Positions 14,381-44,200 of a stretch of DNA of 64,000 nucleotides are shown one piece after another. The stretch lies in NCBI GenBank assembly GCA_951406725.2, contig OX597825.1:27280001-27344000 (forward strand). Reading direction: 5' to 3'. A model generated the notes under the pieces. That model ran no database searches. It was not told the DNA's origin and worked only from the letters and a program-made list of their open reading frames with translations. Position 1 is the stretch's first letter. Each line of letters opens with the position of its first letter. The position numbers and the translations under genes were made by a program. This DNA comes from Octopus vulgaris. Lineage: Eukaryota.

Positions 14381-14444
<64 letters not shown>

Positions 14445-14445
<1 letters not shown>

Positions 14446-15400
14446 AATGTGAGCAGGACAAAATATACAAGTGGGCTGAAAAGAATAGCATGCAGTTCAA
14501 TGCTGAAAAGTTTCAAGCTTTATACTATCAGCATGCAAAACTAAATGCAATACCCAATAAATACACTGGACCTGGAGGGATTGCAATCCCAGAGGCACAA
14601 TCAGTGCGAGACCTGGGTATTTACATGAGTGATGATGCAACCTTTCATGTGCATGTTGCTAAATTGGCAATGAAATGTAGGCGGCTGACCGGATGGATTC
14701 TTAGAACATTTAGAACAAGAGACCAGAAAACCATGATGGCCCTCTGGAGGACACTTGTCCTAAGCAACTTTGACTATTGCTCTCAGCTATGGTCACCATC
14801 CAGTGTCAAGTTAATCACAGAACTTGAGGCGATCCAACGAAGCTACACGAAGAAGATAGCCTCTGTGCAGCATATAAGCTATTGGAAAAGACTCAAGAGA
14901 TTGTGACTCTATTCCTTAAAGCGTAGGCGAGAAAGATATACCATAATATACATCTGGAAGTCCTAGAAGGACTTGTCCCAAACTTTGGCATCGAGAGTTA
15001 CACAAATGCCAGAACTGGGCGCCACTGCATAGTGCCAAGGACTCCAAATTTGCCATCAAGATGTAGGACAAGATACTGTGATAGCCTGGGCTTCTGACGC
15101 CCACAGCTCTTCAATATCCTCCCGAAGAACCTAAGAGACCTGCATGGAGTGAATGCAGATGTCTTTAAAATGAAACTGGATCTCTTCTTGTCAGGTGTCC
15201 CAGATGAACCAACTTCACGGCAAGAGGTGCAGATGAGGGCAATTGCATCAAACTCTCTCATGCACCAGATGGCATTTGCTAAAAAGCATTCGTGAAGTAA
15301 AATCATGTAGCAAAACCAAATGGCGGTGCCCCAGCATGGCCACAGCTTGTGAGCTGAAACTAAATAAAATAAATTAAATAAATAAATTAAAATAAATATA
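14445..15400 (+). mobile_element. 5'-truncated CR1-group LINE copy (RT C-terminus, 3'UTR and A-rich tail)
   Basis: WAEKNSMQFNAEKFQAL...VRDLGI...GWILRTFRTR...DYCSQLWSP, collinear with 27125-28030; in-frame stops; flanked by (AT)n(GT)n and a short (AT)n. Confidence 0.93.
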
Positions 15401-15642: not shown

Positions 15643-15927
15643 AAAATCACTGATGAGAAGGCAGAGATCTGCAAATGAAAACGATACCCATGAGGTAATA
15701 ATTTACATTTCGATTGCTCGCGTGTATGAAGGCGTTCGTCCATATACATCTGATTTTAATTCGTATCGCCTATTCTCCTTAATAATCTTTATGCATAGTT
15801 TATCACCACTTGTGAGTCGTTCGAGGTTCTCCCAGAGTCAGAAATCACAGAATTGCATTTTATTCAACTGAGAAACTTCAATGAGTTGAAACCCCGAATC
15901 AATGAACGGATTTATATTACAAGTTTC

Positions 15928-16348
15928 TTATTTCTTTCTTTCCCACAAGAGGCTAAACATAGAGGGGACAAACAAGGGCAGACAAACGGATTAATTCGAT
16001 TAAACCGACCCCAGTGCGTGACTGGCACTTAATTTATAGACCCTGATAGGATGAATGGCAAAGTCGACCTCGGTGGAATTTGAACTCAGAACGTAGCGGC
16101 AGAAAATACCTATTTCTATTTCTTTACTACCCACAAGGGGATAAATACAGAAGGGACAAACAAGGACAGACAAACGGATTCAATCGATTATATCGACACC
16201 AGTGCGTAACTGGTACTTAATTTATCGACCCCGAAACGGTGAAAGGCAAAGTCGACATCGGCGGAATTTGAACTCAGAACGTATCGGCAGTTGAAATACC
16301 ACTAAGCAATTCGCCCGGCGTGCTAACGTTTCTGACAGCTCGCCACCT
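15928..16348 (-). mobile_element. Family M SINE with tandem ~185 bp body unit (2 units)
   Basis: Two head-to-tail copies of CCCACAAG...GGACAAACAAGG...GAACTCAGAACGT, followed by the tRNA-like head. Confidence 0.85.
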
Positions 16349-20094: not shown

Positions 20095-20895
20095 CAAGGC
20101 ACCAAATTTGGGGGAAGGGTTTAAGTCGATTACATCGATCCCAGTGTGTAATTGGTACTTATTTAATCGACTCCGAAAGAATGAAAGGCAAAGTCGACCT
20201 CGGCGGAATTTGAACACAGAATATAGTGGCAGACGAAATTCCGCTTAGTATTTCGACCCCACAAGGGGCTAAACATAGAGAGGACAAACAAGGACAGACA
20301 AAGGGATTAAGTCGATTACAACTACTTCAGTGCTTAAGTGGTACTTAGTTTATCGACCCCGAAAGGATAAAAGGCACAGTCGGCCTCGGCGAAATTTGAA
20401 TTCAGAACATAAACGGCCGACGAAATACCTATTTCTTTATTGCCCACAAGGGGCTAAACATGGAGGGGACAAACATGGACAGACATAGGTATTAAGTCGA
20501 TTACATCGACCCCAGTGCGTAACTAGTACTTAATTTATCGGCCCCGAAAGGATGAAATGCAAAGTTGACCTCGGCGGAATTTGAACTCAGAACGTAGTGA
20601 CAGACGAAATACCGCTAAGCATTTCGAGCTGCGTCCTAACGATTCTGCCACCACGCCGCCTTATTTAATGAAAATAATCTTTTCTACTATAGGCACAGGG
20701 CCTGAAATTTAGTGGAAAAGGGAGAGTTGATTAGATCGATCCCAGGACGCAATTGGTACTTAATGTATCGACCCCGAAAGGATGAAAGGCAAATTCGACG
20801 CCTGTAGCACATCTGCACTCATACCGTAAAGACAGACAAAATACCACTAAGCATTTCAGCCTGTGTGCTTAACATTTCTGTCAGCTCACCACAGT
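20095..20895 (-). mobile_element. Family M SINE cluster/tandem array (about 4 units)
   Basis: Repeated GGTACTTAATTTATCGACCCCGAAAGGATGAAAGGCAAAGTCGAC units. Confidence 0.85.

Positions 20896-22156: not shown

Positions 22157-22160
<4 letters not shown>
21611..22160 (+). mobile_element. Internally deleted mariner transposon
   Basis: ~30 bp TIRs TTGGGTTGTCCGGAAAGTTCGTGCC / GGGCACGAACTTTCCGGCTAACCCAA, TA on both sides; PPYSPAIAPSDVHLFRSL (YSPDLAPSD motif). Confidence 0.92.
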
Positions 22161-22442
<282 letters not shown>

Positions 22443-22450
22443 AGATATAT

Positions 22451-22459
22451 AAGATGGCG
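22451..22459 (+). promoter_or_regulatory. YY1-type motif AAGATGGCG at the putative LINE 5' end
   Basis: Matches the YY1 consensus (CGCCATNTT reversed) about 10 nt after the (TA)n tract, analogous in position to the YY1 site of human L1. Confidence 0.5.
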
Positions 22460-22983
22460 CTGAACTAACAACAAGTGTGTTAACGTGTCTCTCCTAAATA
22501 TTAAAGAAGTCCTTCCAGAGATCGATGTTATCAGAAGCGAAATTGTCTGCAAAGCGAATATAAGTGATAGTACAACAAGTCACTGTATTTGAGAAGAATA
22601 TTTTCGCTTTTGATGTAGTATTTGCAACTAGAACATACTCGCGTGTTAAAACGCACGTGTGTTACTTCCCGAAATCGAAGTGAATTTTATTCTTCGTCTG
22701 TGAATCAACAAGACACAGGATATTTTCGTTTTTGATGTATATCTGCGTGTCCTGAAAAAAGCCTCTGAAAAATTTGCTGCTTAATACCAAATCGCTTAGG
22801 AAAATATAGAAAGTATCGTGAAACTGTTGCATGTGCTAAATCGAAACTCAAACCCCTTTTGTTTACAAAGTGCGCTTGGGGAGGAATATAAAAGGTCTGT
22901 CTTGTCTATCTATCTTCCTTTCTTATAAAAAGGAATCACGTAAGTACTCTCTGTCAGCCGGTAAGGTAAGATATTATTTATCT

Positions 22984-23281
22984 TGTTATCATTAGTGTTC
23001 TTTCAAACAGAAAATAATTAAAAAAACAAAAAAGATATAAAAATATAAAAATACGCGGTATTCTATCTTTATAATCTTTATAATTTCGTGCCTGCCACGC
23101 ACTCTCTCTTTCTCTTTTTTACATTTCTATTTCTATCTCTCTCATACATTTTTATTATTTGTTATCATTAGTGTTCTTTCAAACAGAAAATAATAATTAA
23201 AAAGATATAAAAATACGCGCTATTCTATCTTTATAATCTCTCCCTCTCTTTCTTACATTTCTATTTCTATCTCTCTCATAC
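22984..23281 (+). repeat. Imperfect tandem duplication (~175 bp spacing) in the LINE 5' region
   Basis: TGTTATCATTAGTGTTCTTTCAAACAGAAAATAAT...AAAATACGCG.TATTCTATCTTTATAATCT...ACATTTCTATTTCTATCTCTCTCATAC occurs twice. Confidence 0.85.
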
Positions 23282-24116
23282 TGTTTATACCTTATCTGTC
23301 TCCCCATCCACCAGACCCTCTATTTCCGCTCTCACTCTCCCCTCCTCCCTCTCTCTCCCTCTGCAATCGTTTCTCTTTCTGCATCTCTCTCAGATCAACT
23401 TTCTCTCACCTCACCCCCTCTCTCAGTTCCTCAACTTCACTCATTCTCTCTTGTATCTATATACCGCCCTCTTTCTCTCTCTCTCTCTCTGTTACTCCCC
23501 CTCCCTCTCTCTGCCTCTTTCCTCTCCGCTCCTTCACAGGTCAAACCCCTTTTCCTCTTCCCCTTCTGTCCCCTTATTTCTTTCTCTACACCACCCTCCC
23601 TGTCCCTTTACTACACTCTGTTGCGCCCCCTCTCTTCCTCTTCCCCCTTTTTCCTTCCTACCTTTCCTCTCCCTGTTCCCTCTAAGGCTCACCACCCCCC
23701 TGTCTCTTTTTTCCTCTCTCTGTCTCCTTCCTCCACACCACCCTCTCTGTCCCTTTACTTCACTCCCTGGTACCTCTATCCTGCCCTCTCTCTCTCTCCC
23801 TCTCCATTTCATCTCTCTCTTCCTCTCCATTTTATCTCTCCGCCTTTCTTCTCCCTGCCCCCCTAGGGTCCACCCTCTTGTCTCACTTTTCCACCCTGTC
23901 CCTTTCTACTACACCTCTATCCCGCTCACTCTCCCCCTGCTGACCTGCCATTCTCTCACCTTTCTCTTTTTTCCCTCTTATTTTCTCTCTTTCTCTCTTC
24001 TCTCAGGAAAATCCCCTCGTCTCTCTCTCTATCCCCCCCTGGCTTTTCTCCTTTCTCTTCTCCCTCTCCATATCTCTCCTTCTCTATCTCTCTCTCTGTT
24101 TCCTATATTTCACTAG
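23282..24116 (+). other. ~830 bp polypyrimidine tract ending in a 3' splice-site-like CACTAG
   Basis: Almost purely C/T on the + strand; AG at 24115-24116, ATG at 24123. Confidence 0.6.
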
Positions 24117-24122
24117 AAGAAA

Positions 24123-25018
24123 ATGGCAAGAAACTGGTCTGCGAGAGAGGTGCAATTGTTCGTCCGCGCTTGGAAGATCGCTGAGGACGACTCGCCGAAC
24201 GAAATTATTGCTGCGGCGCTGAAAAGCAACAATTTTTCGAGAACCACCGCCCAGATAGAGCGAAAGAAGAGAGAAGTTATCCGTTCGTACGCTCTAATCA
24301 GGCAACATGTGGACACCCTGGACATCATCCTGGGAGGTGACGGCAGCAGGGAGGGCCAAAAGGATGAGGAAAGCATCCAGAGCCAAATGGAGAAGCCTGG
24401 AACACAGGGAAACGATGACACATGTCCAGCTTCCAACACCACAACTGAAGACCAAAGAGGTGCGATGGCCGCAAGAAAGGAAAGGCACCCTGGAATTGAT
24501 GGGAAGCAGGAGGTAAAGGGTGACAGAATCAAGGCTAAAGGAAGCCCTGTCCAGAGAAAGCAGAGGGACCCCAGCAAAAACTGTAAGGGCAGGGAAAGAA
24601 ACACCTGCAAATTCTACCTGAGGGGGACTGCTGGTACGGCGTTGAAGGTGCAAACTGTCGCTTTGCACATCGGAGGCCCTACCAAAACCGCACGGACGCG
24701 AGACAGAGGTCCCTCCCTCAGGGAGAACAAAAACAAAAAGTTAAAAGAAGGGAAAAAAGCGCACTGACCACTACTGAAAGACGGTATGCAGATGTGGTGC
24801 GCGGAAACCCAACAGGTGGCCAGCTTCACCCAGATGTGAGAAGGGCGGCAGCTGAACAGCAGTCTTTTTTGTGCATGGCACAAAAAATTGTTCAGCAGCT
24901 GACCTGGCTACAAGCACAAAGCTGGAACTACCACCACATAAGGCCACCTCCAACAGATGCAGGATGGCCACCACAGACACCAACACCAACACACACACCA
25001 CAAAAATATTTCTACTGA
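24123..25018 (+). CDS. LINE ORF1: Myb/SANT-like N-terminus plus CCCH zinc finger; one frameshift at the G5 run 24622-24626
   Basis: RNWSAREVQLFVRAW...IIAAALKSNNFSRTTAQIERKKREVIRSY. Adding one G gives CKFYLRGDCWYGVEGANCRFAH and an open frame to TGA 25016-25018 (298 aa). Confidence 0.75.
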
Positions 25019-27974
25019 ATGTAGGAGGGCTGCTGCGCGGAAACTGTAAAAAGAAAATTTCATTCCTGAGAGACCTTGTGACATGCAATCAAGCTATATG
25101 CATGGCACTCACAGAAACGCATCTTGAACCCGATATAGGTGATGCAGAAATACACATGCCGCAATATGCAGTCATACGCACAGATAGAAAAGGGAGGAGC
25201 CATGGTGGAGTTGCAATGTACATCCGAGATGACCTCACGCCCCAGGTCCTGCTGTCATATTCAAACTCAGTATGTGAAACTCAAATTGTACACATAAGAC
25301 AACTGAATATCGTCATATGCACTACATATCGCCCACCAGACGCCCCAAAACACTCAGGCATGTTTGAAGACTGCCTAACAAAAATAGGAGAAGTCCTCAC
25401 CAACCTTGAACAGCACAACAGTGTATTCTTCATGGGTGACTTTAACCTCCCCAATGTGGAATGGCCTGGGGGCAGATGCTCCCAGGGATGACACACCATC
25501 AGCAGGCACAGGTGGAGTCCCTGCTCCATCTCACAAATACCTCTTTCATGGAGCAAATAGTTCTGCAACCAACAAGGGCAGATAATATACTGGATCTCTG
25601 CTTTACAAACAATATGGATATTATCCATAATGTTAATGTGATGCCGACAATGATCTCGGATCACAACATAATAGAGCTGTCTACGTATGGAACAAAAGCC
25701 CCCGCAGACACACAGCCTATACGAAGCACCCACCATCTCTCCAACTTAAACTTTCATAAAGCCAACTGGAAGTCGATTGAGAAAGAGATCCTCAAACAGG
25801 ATTGGCCTGAATGTCTCTCCACACCGGACATAAACATGAAACACAAACACTTCATGTCCATAATACAAGCCATATGTGACAAATATGTCCCAATGTGCAG
25901 GGCCAGCACACACAAGAATAAAAACAGGATCCCTAGAGAAAGGAGGATTCTTATGAGACGACGGACAAGGATTGCAAACCGCCTGAGCAAGCACACCAAA
26001 AGTGGTGAGAAGTCTCGGCTCGAAAGAATGCTAATGGAAACTGAGAAAAGTCTACATCAGTCCCATGAAAAGGAGAGAGCAGATAAAGAAGCTTGGGTAA
26101 TAGAAAATATAAAATCAAACCCTAAAGCTTTCTTTAAGTTTGCCAAAGAGACAGCCACAGTGCACCAGAGAATAGGACCTCTCTTCCAAAAAGATGGCTC
26201 TCTCACAGGAAATCCCACGAGGATAAGTGAAATACTGAACGAACAGTTCCAAAGTGTATTCACTACACCTCTAGGACACAGGCAAGTAAACAACCCAGAA
26301 GAATTCTTTGCCACTTTACCAGCGGCCAAAGAGACAAAAATTGAGTACATCAACATCGAAGAAGATGATATCACACTAGCCATTGATGAGATTGACACAA
26401 ACTCAGCTGCTGGACCTGATGGATTCCCAGCGATCCTTCTCAAATCGTGCAAACGAGCCCTTGCAAAACCGCTACAGCTTCTTTTTCAGAGCTTTCTTGC
26501 AAGTGGTAAGCTCCCAGTCAAACTGAAAGAGGGGGTAATATGCCCTATCCATAAGGGAGGTAGCAGAGCAGATGCTAAAAATTATAGGCCTATCTCTCTG
26601 ACCTCACACATCAGCAAAGTCATGGAACGAATAGTCCGTAAGAAACTAATCATGTTCCTTGAAGAAAATGACTTACTGTCTGACACCCAGCATGGATTTC
26701 GACCAGGTAGAGGCTGCCTAACACAGCTCCTGCAACACTATGACTGGGTGTTGAAACAGCTACTAAATGGCTCAAATGTGGATGTAATATATCTTGACTT
26801 TGCAAAAGCCTTTGATAAAGTCGACCATGGTATGATCTGTCACAAACTGCGTGGTCTCGGCATAGGCGGGAAACTTGGAGAGTGGCTGCACAACTTCCTA
26901 AAAGACAGAAAACAGGCAGTTGTGAGCAATGGAGCCACCTCCAGGGAAACGCAAATAACAAGCGGTGTCCCACAGGGCACTGTCTTGGGGCCACTGATGT
27001 TCATAGTGGCCCTTTCAGACATGCCTTCAGTTGCTACGATGACCACCCTTGCTAGCTATGCAGATGACACAAAGGTCTCCCACGCAATACAGAACCCTGA
27101 AAATATTGCGCATCTGCAACATGAGCTGGACACAATATACAGGTGGGCTGAGGACAACAACATGCAGTTTAATGCAGGTAAGTTCCAGGCCCTGCGCTAC
27201 TGGCACACAAAGGTAAATGACGTGAAGACTGGATACACTGGCCCAGGAAGAATTGCAATCCCTGAGTCAAAATCAGTGCGTGACCTGGGCATTGACATGA
27301 GCAATGATGCATCTTTCCAAATGCATATTGCTAATCTGGTGATAAAATGCAGACGGCTAGCTGGATGGATTCTCCGAACTTTCAGAACAAGAGAGAAGGA
27401 GACACTGATGGTCCTATGGAAAACATTTGTCCTCAGCCGCTTGGACTACTGCTCCCAACTTTGGTCACCACACAATATAAAACAAACAGCAGAACTCGAA
27501 GCAACTCAGAGAAGCTACACAAAGAAAATCGTCTCAATGCAAAATGTCAGCTACTGGGAAAGACTGAAGGTATTAAACCTCTTCTCCCTGGAGCGGAGGC
27601 GGGAGAGATATGCAGTAATATACATCTGGAAAATCCTGGAGGGTCTTGTCCCAAACTTTGGCATTCAAAGTTACTCCAACCGCAGAACGGGGCGCCGCTG
27701 CGTGGTGCCAAGGATTCCAACATCACCATCAAAATACAGGTCCAGATACTGCAACAGCTTGGGTTTCAGAGGACCACAGCTTTTCAACATCCTCCCTAAA
27801 TGCCTGAGAGACTTACATGGTGTGGATGTGGGTTTCTTTAAAACTAAACTGGATCTCTTCTTGTTGGGAGTCCCAGATGAACCTACCTCACGACAGGAGA
27901 CACGGATGCGGGCAGCAGCATCGAACTCCCTTGTTGATCAAGTGCCACGTATCAGAGGTGGATTCACAAACTAG
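24964..27974 (+). CDS. LINE ORF2: APE endonuclease plus reverse transcriptase; one frameshift near the G5 run 25468-25472
   Basis: APE motifs LLNVGGL, LTETHL, RTDR..GGVAMYI, YRPP, GDFNLP, NILDLCF, SDHN; RT motifs NYRPISLTS, QHGFRPGR, YLDFAKAFDKVDH, GVPQGTVLGP, YADD; CR1-type C-terminus SYWERL...SLERRR. Corrected length 1003 aa. Confidence 0.95.
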
Positions 27975-27987
27975 TGTGGCTCATTCA

Positions 27988-28774
<787 letters not shown>

Positions 28775-43284: not shown

Positions 43285-44200
43285 TATTAAAGCGCTTCAG
43301 CCATGCAGTTGTTGTCATGCTGGAACACGAGCGTGGCCTTTCTGATTTCCTCAGAAATTCAGCTGCTCATGTCTGTACGTCATGTCGGGCTGTTGGTTCA
43401 TCTGTATAGTGGAGAGGATGATGGTGAGTTCCGTTTTGAAGACATCTCCTACCACCTTATGCAGATTTCTTAATTTTTGTGGCAGGGCATTGAAAAGTTG
43501 TGGCAATTTGAACCGTAGACTATTGCAGCAGCTGGTCATAAATTTAGAAGGTGTGGATGGTAGTTTGAGTTCAATGCAAAGGCAGCCGGTTCTGGTATTT
43601 GTATAACTCTCAATGCTGAAATTAGGAACTACCCTCTCTAGAATTTTCTATATGTAGATTATTACATATCAGTCGCGCCTTCACTCCAGAGAGTAAAGTT
43701 GTAGGTTTCTCAACCTATCTTTATAGCTCATCCGTTGCACTGTTTCAATCTTTTTAGTGTCGAGGCGTTGGACTACTTCAAGCTCCGCAGTTACTTTGGC
43801 ACTATATGGTGGCTCTGAACAAAGGTTCTCCACAGGGTCAACATAGTTTCTTCGTCTCTCGTCTTGAAGGACAACAGTATCCATCCTTCTAGTTGTCTGG
43901 ACTCTGCTGTAATCTTGGTAATGTGCATATAAAATGATGCATCATTGCACATGCTGAACCCCAAGTCTTTTACTGCCCGTGACTCTGGGACTGCAGAGCC
44001 TTCAGGTGCTGCATATACAGGTTTTAGTGCATTTAGAAGCTGATAGCGCAGTACTTGAATTCCAGAATTAAATTGCATGTTGTTTATTTCGGCCCACTTT
44101 TATATCGAATTCAGTTCCCATTGCAAGCTTCCGACGTCATCTTGATTTTTATTGCATCTGATAAATTTGTATCATCCGCATAGCCAGTGACAGTGGCTCT
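43285..44200 (-). mobile_element. Older 5'-truncated CR1-group LINE copy
   Basis: GYADDT, NNMQFNSG, VKDLG, GWILLSFKTRDEETMLTLWRTFV, SYKDRLRNLQLYSLE, CCNSLRFKLPQLFNALP; 3' motif GTGTTCCAGCATGAC...GCTGAAG. Confidence 0.88.

What the first reader, a model, noticed from the sequence alone, without database searches (positions are those of the whole stretch)
24123..25018. LINE ORF1 with a Myb/SANT-like DNA-binding domain fused to a CCCH zinc finger
Seen: the N-terminus RNWSAREVQLFVRAW-x8-NEIIAAALKSNNFSRTTAQIERKKREVIRSY follows the W..E..L...W / IA..L....F.RT..Q...K......Y pattern of Myb/SANT-like (trihelix) domains. After restoring one base there is a C-x7-C-x8-C-x3-H finger (CKFYLRGDCWYGVEGANCRFAH) that the ORF track hides. 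Established: CR1/L2-group ORF1s typically carry PHD, RRM, CCHC, zinc-finger/leucine-zipper or esterase modules, while Myb/SANT-like domains are typical of the PIF/Harbinger DNA-binding ORF. Inference: a dsDNA-binding plus RNA-binding ORF1 could tether the LINE RNP to a DNA target such as (TA)n, or autoregulate the internal promoter. I do not recall this architecture for CR1 but cannot exclude that it has been described.
Basis: partly seen in the sequence, partly recalled or inferred. Interest (0 to 1): 0.85.

Follow-up and report, generated by a model that had tools for sequence, protein, structure and literature searches.

The report
Octopus LINE with Myb-tipped frameshift fusion
A young octopus jumping gene carries, in its first protein, a predicted Myb-type DNA-binding fold where its relatives have a histone-reading PHD finger, and a conserved slippery sequence likely joins that fold to the element's cutting and copying enzyme, which would help explain why its copies sit mostly in (TA)n repeats.

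Summary
The window copy is a full-length CR1-group LINE (22451-28056) inside a (TA)n array. Its ORF1 frameshift is a one-G loss: 15 of 30 sister copies carry the intact 298-aa ORF1, and four short-read runs show mainly the intact form. The N-terminus is a Myb/SANT-like three-helix domain under purifying selection. It scores below the Pfam cut-off here but above it in a related octopus family. A CCCH finger follows. Relatives in the same RT clade, including one family in this genome, have PHD plus tandem CCCH, so Myb most likely replaced PHD. One captured Myb module sits on two RT lineages that are not sisters (AU p=7e-5). New here: the invariant ORF1 'FL' is encoded by U_UUU_UUA/G in 8 of 8 lineages, exactly where the -1 ORF2 frame opens, and family D has no Met before the endonuclease. 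This points to a programmed -1 frameshift giving a Myb-CCCH-endonuclease-RT protein, an R2-like layout. Myb families flank (TA)n more often (28/30, 10/29, 12/30) than the PHD family (1/26), but that is one control. Frameshifting and DNA binding are untested. I did not find the architecture in 10 paper searches; Repbase and Dfam were not available.

The parts
22160..22450 (.). (TA)n array, 5' half of the insertion target
   Evidence: family A 5' flanks TA-rich in 20 of 26 full-length and 7 of 9 truncated copies
22451..24122 (+). 5' UTR, 1672 nt, begins AAGATGGCG; pyrimidine-rich (85% C+T) from about 23281 to 24110
   Evidence: shared 5' junction in sister copies
24123..25018 (+). ORF1, 298 aa in intact sister copies; broken here by a one-base loss in the G run 24622-24626
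24126..24338 (+). Myb/SANT-like three-helix domain (residues 2-72; helices 7-19, 25-35, 42-70)
24606..24670 (+). C-x7-C-x8-C-x3-H zinc finger, matching the first finger of the tandem CCCH array of relatives
24785..24934 (+). YADVV motif and C-terminal helix (residues about 222-271), conserved, dN/dS 0.10-0.16 between A and B
24865..24871 (+). Predicted -1 slippery heptamer T TTT TTG (S-F-L codons); the ORF2 frame opens 3 codons upstream
24964..27974 (+). ORF2 from its first ATG (APE endonuclease plus RT), 1003 aa in intact copies, -1 frame to ORF1; broken here at the G run 25468-25472
27975..28056 (+). 3' UTR and (TTTAAGGA)3 tail; no poly-A
28055..28726 (.). (TA)n array, 3' half of the insertion target
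   Evidence: 28 of 30 family A 3' flanks TA-rich

Best explanation
This is ORF1 of a young CR1-group LINE of an octopus, made of a predicted Myb/SANT-like domain, a CCCH finger and a conserved helix, and a programmed -1 ribosomal frameshift at U_UUU_UUG likely fuses it to the endonuclease-reverse transcriptase, so that the Myb domain would dock the enzyme on target DNA and bias insertion toward (TA)n arrays. Shown: the architecture, purifying selection, PHD at the same position in relatives, the conserved heptamer at the opening of the -1 frame, and TA-rich flanks. Inferred: most ribosomes make the 298-aa ORF1p, whose CCCH finger binds the element's RNA (from known CCCH function). A minority slip and make a roughly 1284-aa Myb-CCCH-EN-RT protein (248 + 1036 aa). 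The Myb module was captured once from a Myb/SANT gene or transposon, replaced PHD, and moved between co-resident RT lineages. My odds by step: architecture 0.95, fusion by frameshift 0.7-0.75, Myb contributing to the TA bias 0.4.
For: Fold: AF2 gives three helices, pLDDT 85.5. Top VIA rows are RAD MYB Z7.6, DNAJC2 SANT Z7.3 and GT-1 Z7.2. Selection: Myb dN 0.32-0.37 with saturated pS 0.76-0.86 between A and B; dN/dS 0.14-0.27 within B. Helix 3 is basic (7 K/R, 2 D/E). PHD-like plus tandem CCCH in L082, L084, L087, P0029 and octopus family D, interleaved with the Myb families in the RT tree. An HMM of 11 A/B-type domains scores 7 family C domains 34-47 bits and 6 other Myb/SANT ORFs of the genome 2-7 bits. 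A/B plus C as one RT clade is rejected, p-AU 7e-5 (26 rows, LG+G4). Heptamer T TTT TTR in 19 of 19 elements with the motif located. Joint codon probability is 4e-13 over 8 lineages, assuming independence; 2 of 31 other FL dipeptides show it; -1 frame openness has joint 2e-9. Family D: T6A in 17 of 17 copies and no Met before EN in 14 of 14 with EN in frame. 3' flanks TA-rich in A 28/30, B 10/29, C 12/30, D 1/26, background 2.2%. Full-length copies: A 6/9, B' 14/17, C 13/22, D 1/10. 5' flanks of truncated copies: 7/9, 6/21, 8/15, 2/21.
Against: The window family's domain is below the Pfam cut-off; Foldseek gave no E<=0.001; Z<8 can be a common arrangement. The recognition helix has K49 where host Myb/SANT ORFs mostly have W, and an acidic E51, so base-specific binding is unproven. 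A and B use U_UUU_UUG, which does not occur in the held part of the frameshift review, and both have a Met before EN (28/28 each). No consistent stimulator structure: z from +1.2 to -2.5, below -2 in only 1 of 8 lineages. 9 of 22 outgroup CR1s also lack an upstream Met. There is only one PHD control family. By the junction-run metric D is also enriched (7/26 vs 1.3% background), B vs D p=0.77 and C vs D p=0.06. A and B differ (p=2e-6). Three B loci (L379-381) are duplicates of one insertion. The ORF1s of the RT sister group (P0070, P0077, P0081, P0090) were not seen.
Confidence: 0.45

Rival explanations
1. The domain is a generic chromatin or protein reader (SANT-like), a functional stand-in for the PHD it replaced. 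The (TA)n bias comes from the endonuclease and from annealing of the AT-containing 3' tail, with or without the fusion.
For: It occupies the PHD position. The recognition helix lacks the canonical W. SANT domains rank as high as DNA-binding Mybs. All four families join at AT/TA, and PHD family D has a TA run at 7/26 junctions. A and B differ in TA bias despite 56-61% identical Myb domains. PMC4120745 suggests a general genome-targeting role for PHD (passage).
Against: Two RT lineages about 38% identical that share only the Myb module both exceed D in long TA flanks (p=2e-12 and 0.001; 0.02 and 0.02 for full-length copies). Helix 3 is basic with conserved R40, R47, K48.
Confidence: 0.33
2. In family A, ORF2 starts separately at AUG 24964 by reinitiation and the slippery site is a relic. 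ORF1p works only as an RNA chaperone and RNP coat.
For: Met before EN in 28 of 28 A and 28 of 28 B copies with EN in frame. The heptamer ends in G. No clear stimulator. SART1 uses stop-start reinitiation (PMC3708506 passage).
Against: The T run is identical in A and B although synonymous sites around it are 58-67% changed. The Met position is not conserved among B subfamilies (38, 22, 13). The AUG lies 55 nt upstream of the ORF1 stop.
Confidence: 0.2
3. ORF1p binds the element's own 5' UTR promoter and autoregulates transcription.
For: Myb/SANT-like folds include transcription factors (GT-1, RAD).
Against: The 5' UTRs of the three Myb families show no blastn similarity at E<=0.01; a short shared motif would be missed. 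The longest TA run in the family A UTR is 6 nt.
Confidence: 0.07
4. History only: Myb-CCCH was ancestral in this RT clade, or was captured twice, and PHD replaced it repeatedly; no module moved between lineages.
For: Myb occurs on both sides of the clade's deep forks, several of which are unresolved. ORF1 is known for few rows.
Against: PHD-like domains occur in four in-clade lineages and in the outgroup CR1s. A/B and C domains share a helix-3 extension and form one group (90/83). No Myb ORF1 was seen among the metagenome loci.
Confidence: 0.2

Closest known systems
CR1/L2 ORF1 types I-V (Khazina and Weichenrieder; Metcalfe and Casane, PMC4120745)
   Same: Two-ORF APE-RT LINE; an N-terminal reader domain plus an RNA-binding module; domain shuffling between lineages.
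   Different: No Myb, SANT or CCCH in that paper's text or supplements. Here there is no RRM, CCHC or esterase. The PHD-CCCH relatives may be hidden among its 'PHD only' types (not tested).
R2 and other RLE retrotransposons (ZnF-Myb-RT-RLE)
   Same: Works like it if the fusion is real: zinc finger and Myb N-terminal to the RT recognise target DNA (PMC12503042 passages).
   Different: APE endonuclease, two ORFs, CCCH finger, Myb first, and a microsatellite bias rather than an rDNA site.
TRAS telomeric LINEs
   Same: APE LINE with a Myb domain proposed to aid repeat targeting (PMC5537684 passage).
   Different: The TRAS Myb lies in Pol (ORF2); here it is the N-terminus of ORF1.
Dictyostelium TRE5-A
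   Same: Precedent for ORF1p-guided target choice (PMC3159450 passages).
   Different: TRE5-A ORF1p binds TFIIIB by protein contact; this is a different clade and domain.
Retroviral/LTR gag-pol -1 frameshifting
   Same: X_XXY_YYZ heptamer; U_UUU_UUA is the HIV site (PMC5009743 passages).
   Different: A non-LTR element; no clear 3' stimulator; A/B end in G. The review passages I saw give LINE ORF2 a separate initiation.
Myb/SANT-like (PF13837) host and PIF/Harbinger proteins
   Same: W..E..L...W and RT..Q...K pattern; predicted three-helix fold.
   Different: Shorter loop, no third aromatic, and a helix-3 extension private to these LINEs. No donor was identified.

Membership tests
Myb/SANT-like domain (PF13837) | Profile score at or above the curated cut-off | tested here: inconclusive
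   21.5 bits < 27 for this family; homologous family C 28.6-29.9 in 3 of 4 queries and P0041 29.3
Myb/SANT-like domain (PF13837) | Three-helix HTH fold matching solved Myb/SANT/trihelix domains | tested here: met
   AF2 pLDDT 85.5; top three VIA rows MYB, SANT, GT-1, Z 7.2-7.6, moderate; Foldseek not significant
Myb/SANT-like domain (PF13837) | Sequence-specific dsDNA binding | not testable with these tools
   basic helix 3 only
CCCH zinc finger | C-x-C-x-C-x3-H ligands conserved; Pfam zf-CCCH | tested here: met
   21.3 bits > 20.5 on the 50-aa segment, 18.9 on the whole ORF; ligands conserved across families
CR1 group LINE | APE endonuclease plus RT in ORF2, 5' truncation, short tandem-repeat tail | tested here: met
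   (3'-biased DNA depth)
Canonical CR1 clade | RT placement among named reference CR1s | tested here: inconclusive
   forms a separate, fully supported clade beside PHD-RRM/esterase CR1-type rows; no named references and no L2/Crack rows in the tree
Zenon | No ORF1 and a poly-A tail (PMC13343379) | tested here: not met
   ORF1 present; tail (TTTAAGGA)n
Programmed -1 frameshift element | In-phase slippery heptamer, conserved, at the start of an open -1 frame | tested here: met
Programmed -1 frameshift element | 3' stimulatory structure | tested here: inconclusive
   no consistent hairpin; pseudoknots not modelled
Programmed -1 frameshift element | Transframe product observed | not testable with these tools
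   needs a reporter assay, proteomics or ribosome profiling
PIF/Harbinger ORF1 | Linked DDE transposase and terminal inverted repeats | tested here: not met
   the ORF is linked to EN-RT in the copies read; a Harbinger origin of the domain remains untested

The most novel reading that the evidence does not exclude
A broad invertebrate CR1-group clade makes its endonuclease-RT as a gag-pol-like -1 frameshift fusion with ORF1, so the ORF1 N-terminus acts as an exchangeable targeting head. Octopus lineages swapped the PHD head for a Myb head, passed it between unrelated RT lineages, and so became (TA)n-seeking: an APE LINE converging on the R2 ZnF-Myb design.
Probability: 0.3. Interest if true: 0.9.

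Novelty: new variant of a known kind. Interest (0 to 1): 0.7.

Why it matters
How LINE ORF2 is translated and what ORF1p does beyond coating RNA are open questions (PMC3708506 and PMC12503042 passages). This genome holds a natural experiment: young, intact families with the same layout but either a Myb or a PHD head, and different insertion flanks. That makes ORF1-directed targeting and ORF1-ORF2 frameshift fusion directly testable by reporter and swap experiments. It also adds two ORF1 types (Myb-CCCH and PHD-CCCH) that are missing from the surveys I read. A swappable targeting head on an APE retrotransposon would interest people building gene-insertion tools.

Tried and rejected
PDB sequence search with the domain profile: nothing relevant, best E 0.32. 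Foldseek: no E<=0.001; GT-1 first for the full model, TEAD4 first for the domain. ESM Atlas: PF13837 clusters at 0.87, lead only; no usable hit for family C ORF1. Trimer prediction of the C-terminal helix: no verdict, score 0.02. AU test on the 60-row mixture set did not finish, so the 26-row LG+G4 test is cited. In one search the L075 row picked up a neighbouring family A copy; this was corrected. In one search the family B tail was not stripped; one search replaces it. Rfam: no match. 3' UTR fold is unremarkable, z -1.15. The label CR1-Zenon was rejected. Three look-ups in earlier scan findings were empty. Expression: two runs guessed to be RNA have contigs spanning ORF1 into ORF2 with the intact frame, and X4 lacks the DNA-like 3' bias. 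RNA status is a guess and contigs cannot show level or strand, so I do not count this as shown transcription. A paper on turtle CR1 asked for by PubMed id was not held.

Full report
Element and observation. The finding is ORF1 of a full-length LINE at 22451-28056: a 1672-nt 5' UTR, ORF1, an APE-RT ORF2 (Pfam Exo_endo_phos and RVT_1) and a (TTTAAGGA)3 tail, between two (TA)n arrays. Named protein hits are Octopus vulgaris. The family is young: the window copy is 99.3-99.8% identical to three full-length sisters. Of 30 sister loci, 15 encode the intact 298-aa ORF1 and 14 keep the CCCH ligands; 4 of 10 fetched copies also have a full-length ORF2. The window's breaks in ORF1 and ORF2 are one-base losses in G runs. 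Short-read contigs of four runs carry the longer run, so these are most likely assembly or private homopolymer slips.

The domain. Residues 1-80 match Myb_DNA-bind_4 at E=3.2e-4, under the cut-off, and 14 of 21 homologues match. AF2 predicts three helices with a long third helix. A structure search of 48,161 chains ranks RAD MYB, DNAJC2 SANT and GT-1 first (Z 7.6-7.2); Foldseek and sequence searches of the PDB were not significant. A PF13837 search of the genome returned 43 matches over the cut-off; of the 20 loci read, 15 are a divergent LINE family, C, with Myb plus tandem CCCH fingers, and 5 are other Myb/SANT ORFs. The domain is under purifying selection. Its recognition helix is basic but lacks the usual W, so I call it Myb/SANT-like by fold and leave its ligand open.

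History. I label the window's family A and its 47%-identical relative B (Myb plus one CCCH). C has Myb plus four fingers, and D, also in this genome, has a PHD-like domain plus three fingers (the PHD Pfam score for D is weak, E=0.033). Metagenomic relatives L082, L084, L087 and protein P0029 have PHD-like plus tandem CCCH, whereas more distant CR1-type loci have PHD-RRM-like or esterase-like ORF1s by inspection. In the RT tree D groups with A/B (97) and C lies outside; A/B plus C as one clade is rejected. Yet their Myb domains are one lineage. The simplest reading is an ancestral PHD-CCCH ORF1, one Myb capture, and transfer of the head between co-resident lineages. ORF1 is unknown for most rows of the tree. 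Unnamed records P0008 and P0014 show Myb plus one CCCH at 32-33% identity, so the type extends beyond the families read here; their organisms are not given.

A frameshift signal. The only invariant columns of an 11-row ORF1 alignment are F249 and L250. In all 19 elements examined they are encoded T TTT TTA (C, D, five metagenome loci) or T TTT TTG (A, B). The -1 frame, which is ORF2, opens 1-3 codons upstream and runs into the endonuclease in intact copies, while the +1 frame closes within 11 codons. The chance of these codons from each element's own usage is 4e-13 jointly over 8 lineages, and 2 of 31 other FL pairs have them. Family D has no Met before the endonuclease in 14 of 14 copies with it in frame; the frame is open in 11 of those, and 3 further copies had an indel or were truncated. 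The first Met also falls inside the endonuclease in L082, L084, L087 and L083. U_UUU_UUA is the HIV shift site (PMC5009743 passage). Against: no consistent 3' stimulator, a G-ending heptamer and an available Met in A and B, and missing Mets in 9 of 22 outgroup loci. I infer a roughly 1284-aa Myb-CCCH-EN-RT product in family A; it has not been observed.

Targets. With the tail stripped, the first 30 nt of the 3' flank were at least 60% TA/AT steps in A 28/30, B 10/29 (1 dropped), C 12/30 and D 1/26 (4 dropped), against 2.2% of window background. Each set is the 30 best of 40 scored matches. 5' flanks of truncated copies follow the same order, so the arrays predate insertion. Full-length copies give A 6/9, B' 14/17, C 13/22 and D 1/10. 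A stricter junction metric weakens the contrast (D 7/26; B vs D p=0.77). Two Myb RT lineages against one PHD lineage is suggestive, not proof; endonuclease and tail differences are confounded with the head domain.

Literature. Ten searches combined ORF1, LINE, CR1 or non-LTR with Myb, SANT, CCCH, PHD, Zenon, octopus or microsatellite terms; none listed a Myb or CCCH LINE ORF1. Read: PMC4120745 (parts 1-2 of 5 of the body, term passages, supplement search); PMC13343379 (abstract, passages, supplement search); and passages only of PMC10294476, PMC9115989, PMC13708176, PMC5537684, PMC5203782 (its ORF1 domain supplement was not searched), PMC12503042, PMC5009743 (first 300,000 characters held), PMC3708506 and PMC3159450. 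Myb, SANT and CCCH occur zero times in the main text of PMC4120745, PMC13343379 and PMC5203782. I recall that overlapping ORFs and possible frameshifting were suggested for single CR1 or R1 elements in older papers; this is unverified. Repbase and Dfam were not available.

Verdict. The feature is real: a new ORF1 variant of a known kind of element, with a strong sequence signal for an ORF1-ORF2 frameshift fusion and a plausible but unproven role of the Myb head in (TA)n targeting. Interest 0.70.

Noticed in passing
L098:1080, L099:1621, L100:1541, L108:937: Four of 22 outgroup CR1-type loci have an in-phase slippery heptamer (A_AAA_AAC, U_UUA_AAC, G_GGA_AAC, A_AAA_AAA) inside ORF1 where a 963-1064 codon -1 frame begins. 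-1 frameshifting may be wider in CR1; no chance control was run.
   Followed up: partly
L291, L297 (G000 family D); L082, L084, L087: PHD-like plus three tandem CCCH fingers is itself an ORF1 type not named in the surveys read. Family D is young and has intact copies.
   Followed up: partly
window 14443-15362: 5'-truncated family B copy (91% to L414) after an (AT)n(TG)n array; an older relative lies at 43357-44200 on the minus strand.
   Followed up: partly
window 22451-22462: The element starts AAGATGGCG, resembling a YY1 site as at the human L1 5' end (recalled, not tested).
   Followed up: no
L070, L301, L306: Copies in which ORF1 runs in frame into ORF2 (1228 aa in L070, 1439 codons in L301); L301 and L306 switch frame at the same T run. 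These may be homopolymer errors or real slips.
   Followed up: no
L163, L164 (G000:C26): Two short Myb/SANT-like ORFs about 18 kb apart, the nearest non-LINE branch in the domain tree; a possible donor class, but they score only 5-7 bits against the LINE profile.
   Followed up: partly
window 15924-16290 and 20115-20614: Tandem 185-188 nt units of a SINE-like repeat.
   Followed up: no
L414 5' UTR; L297 5' end: Families B and D have tandemly repeated 5' UTR units unrelated to A and C, which suggests promoter turnover.
   Followed up: no
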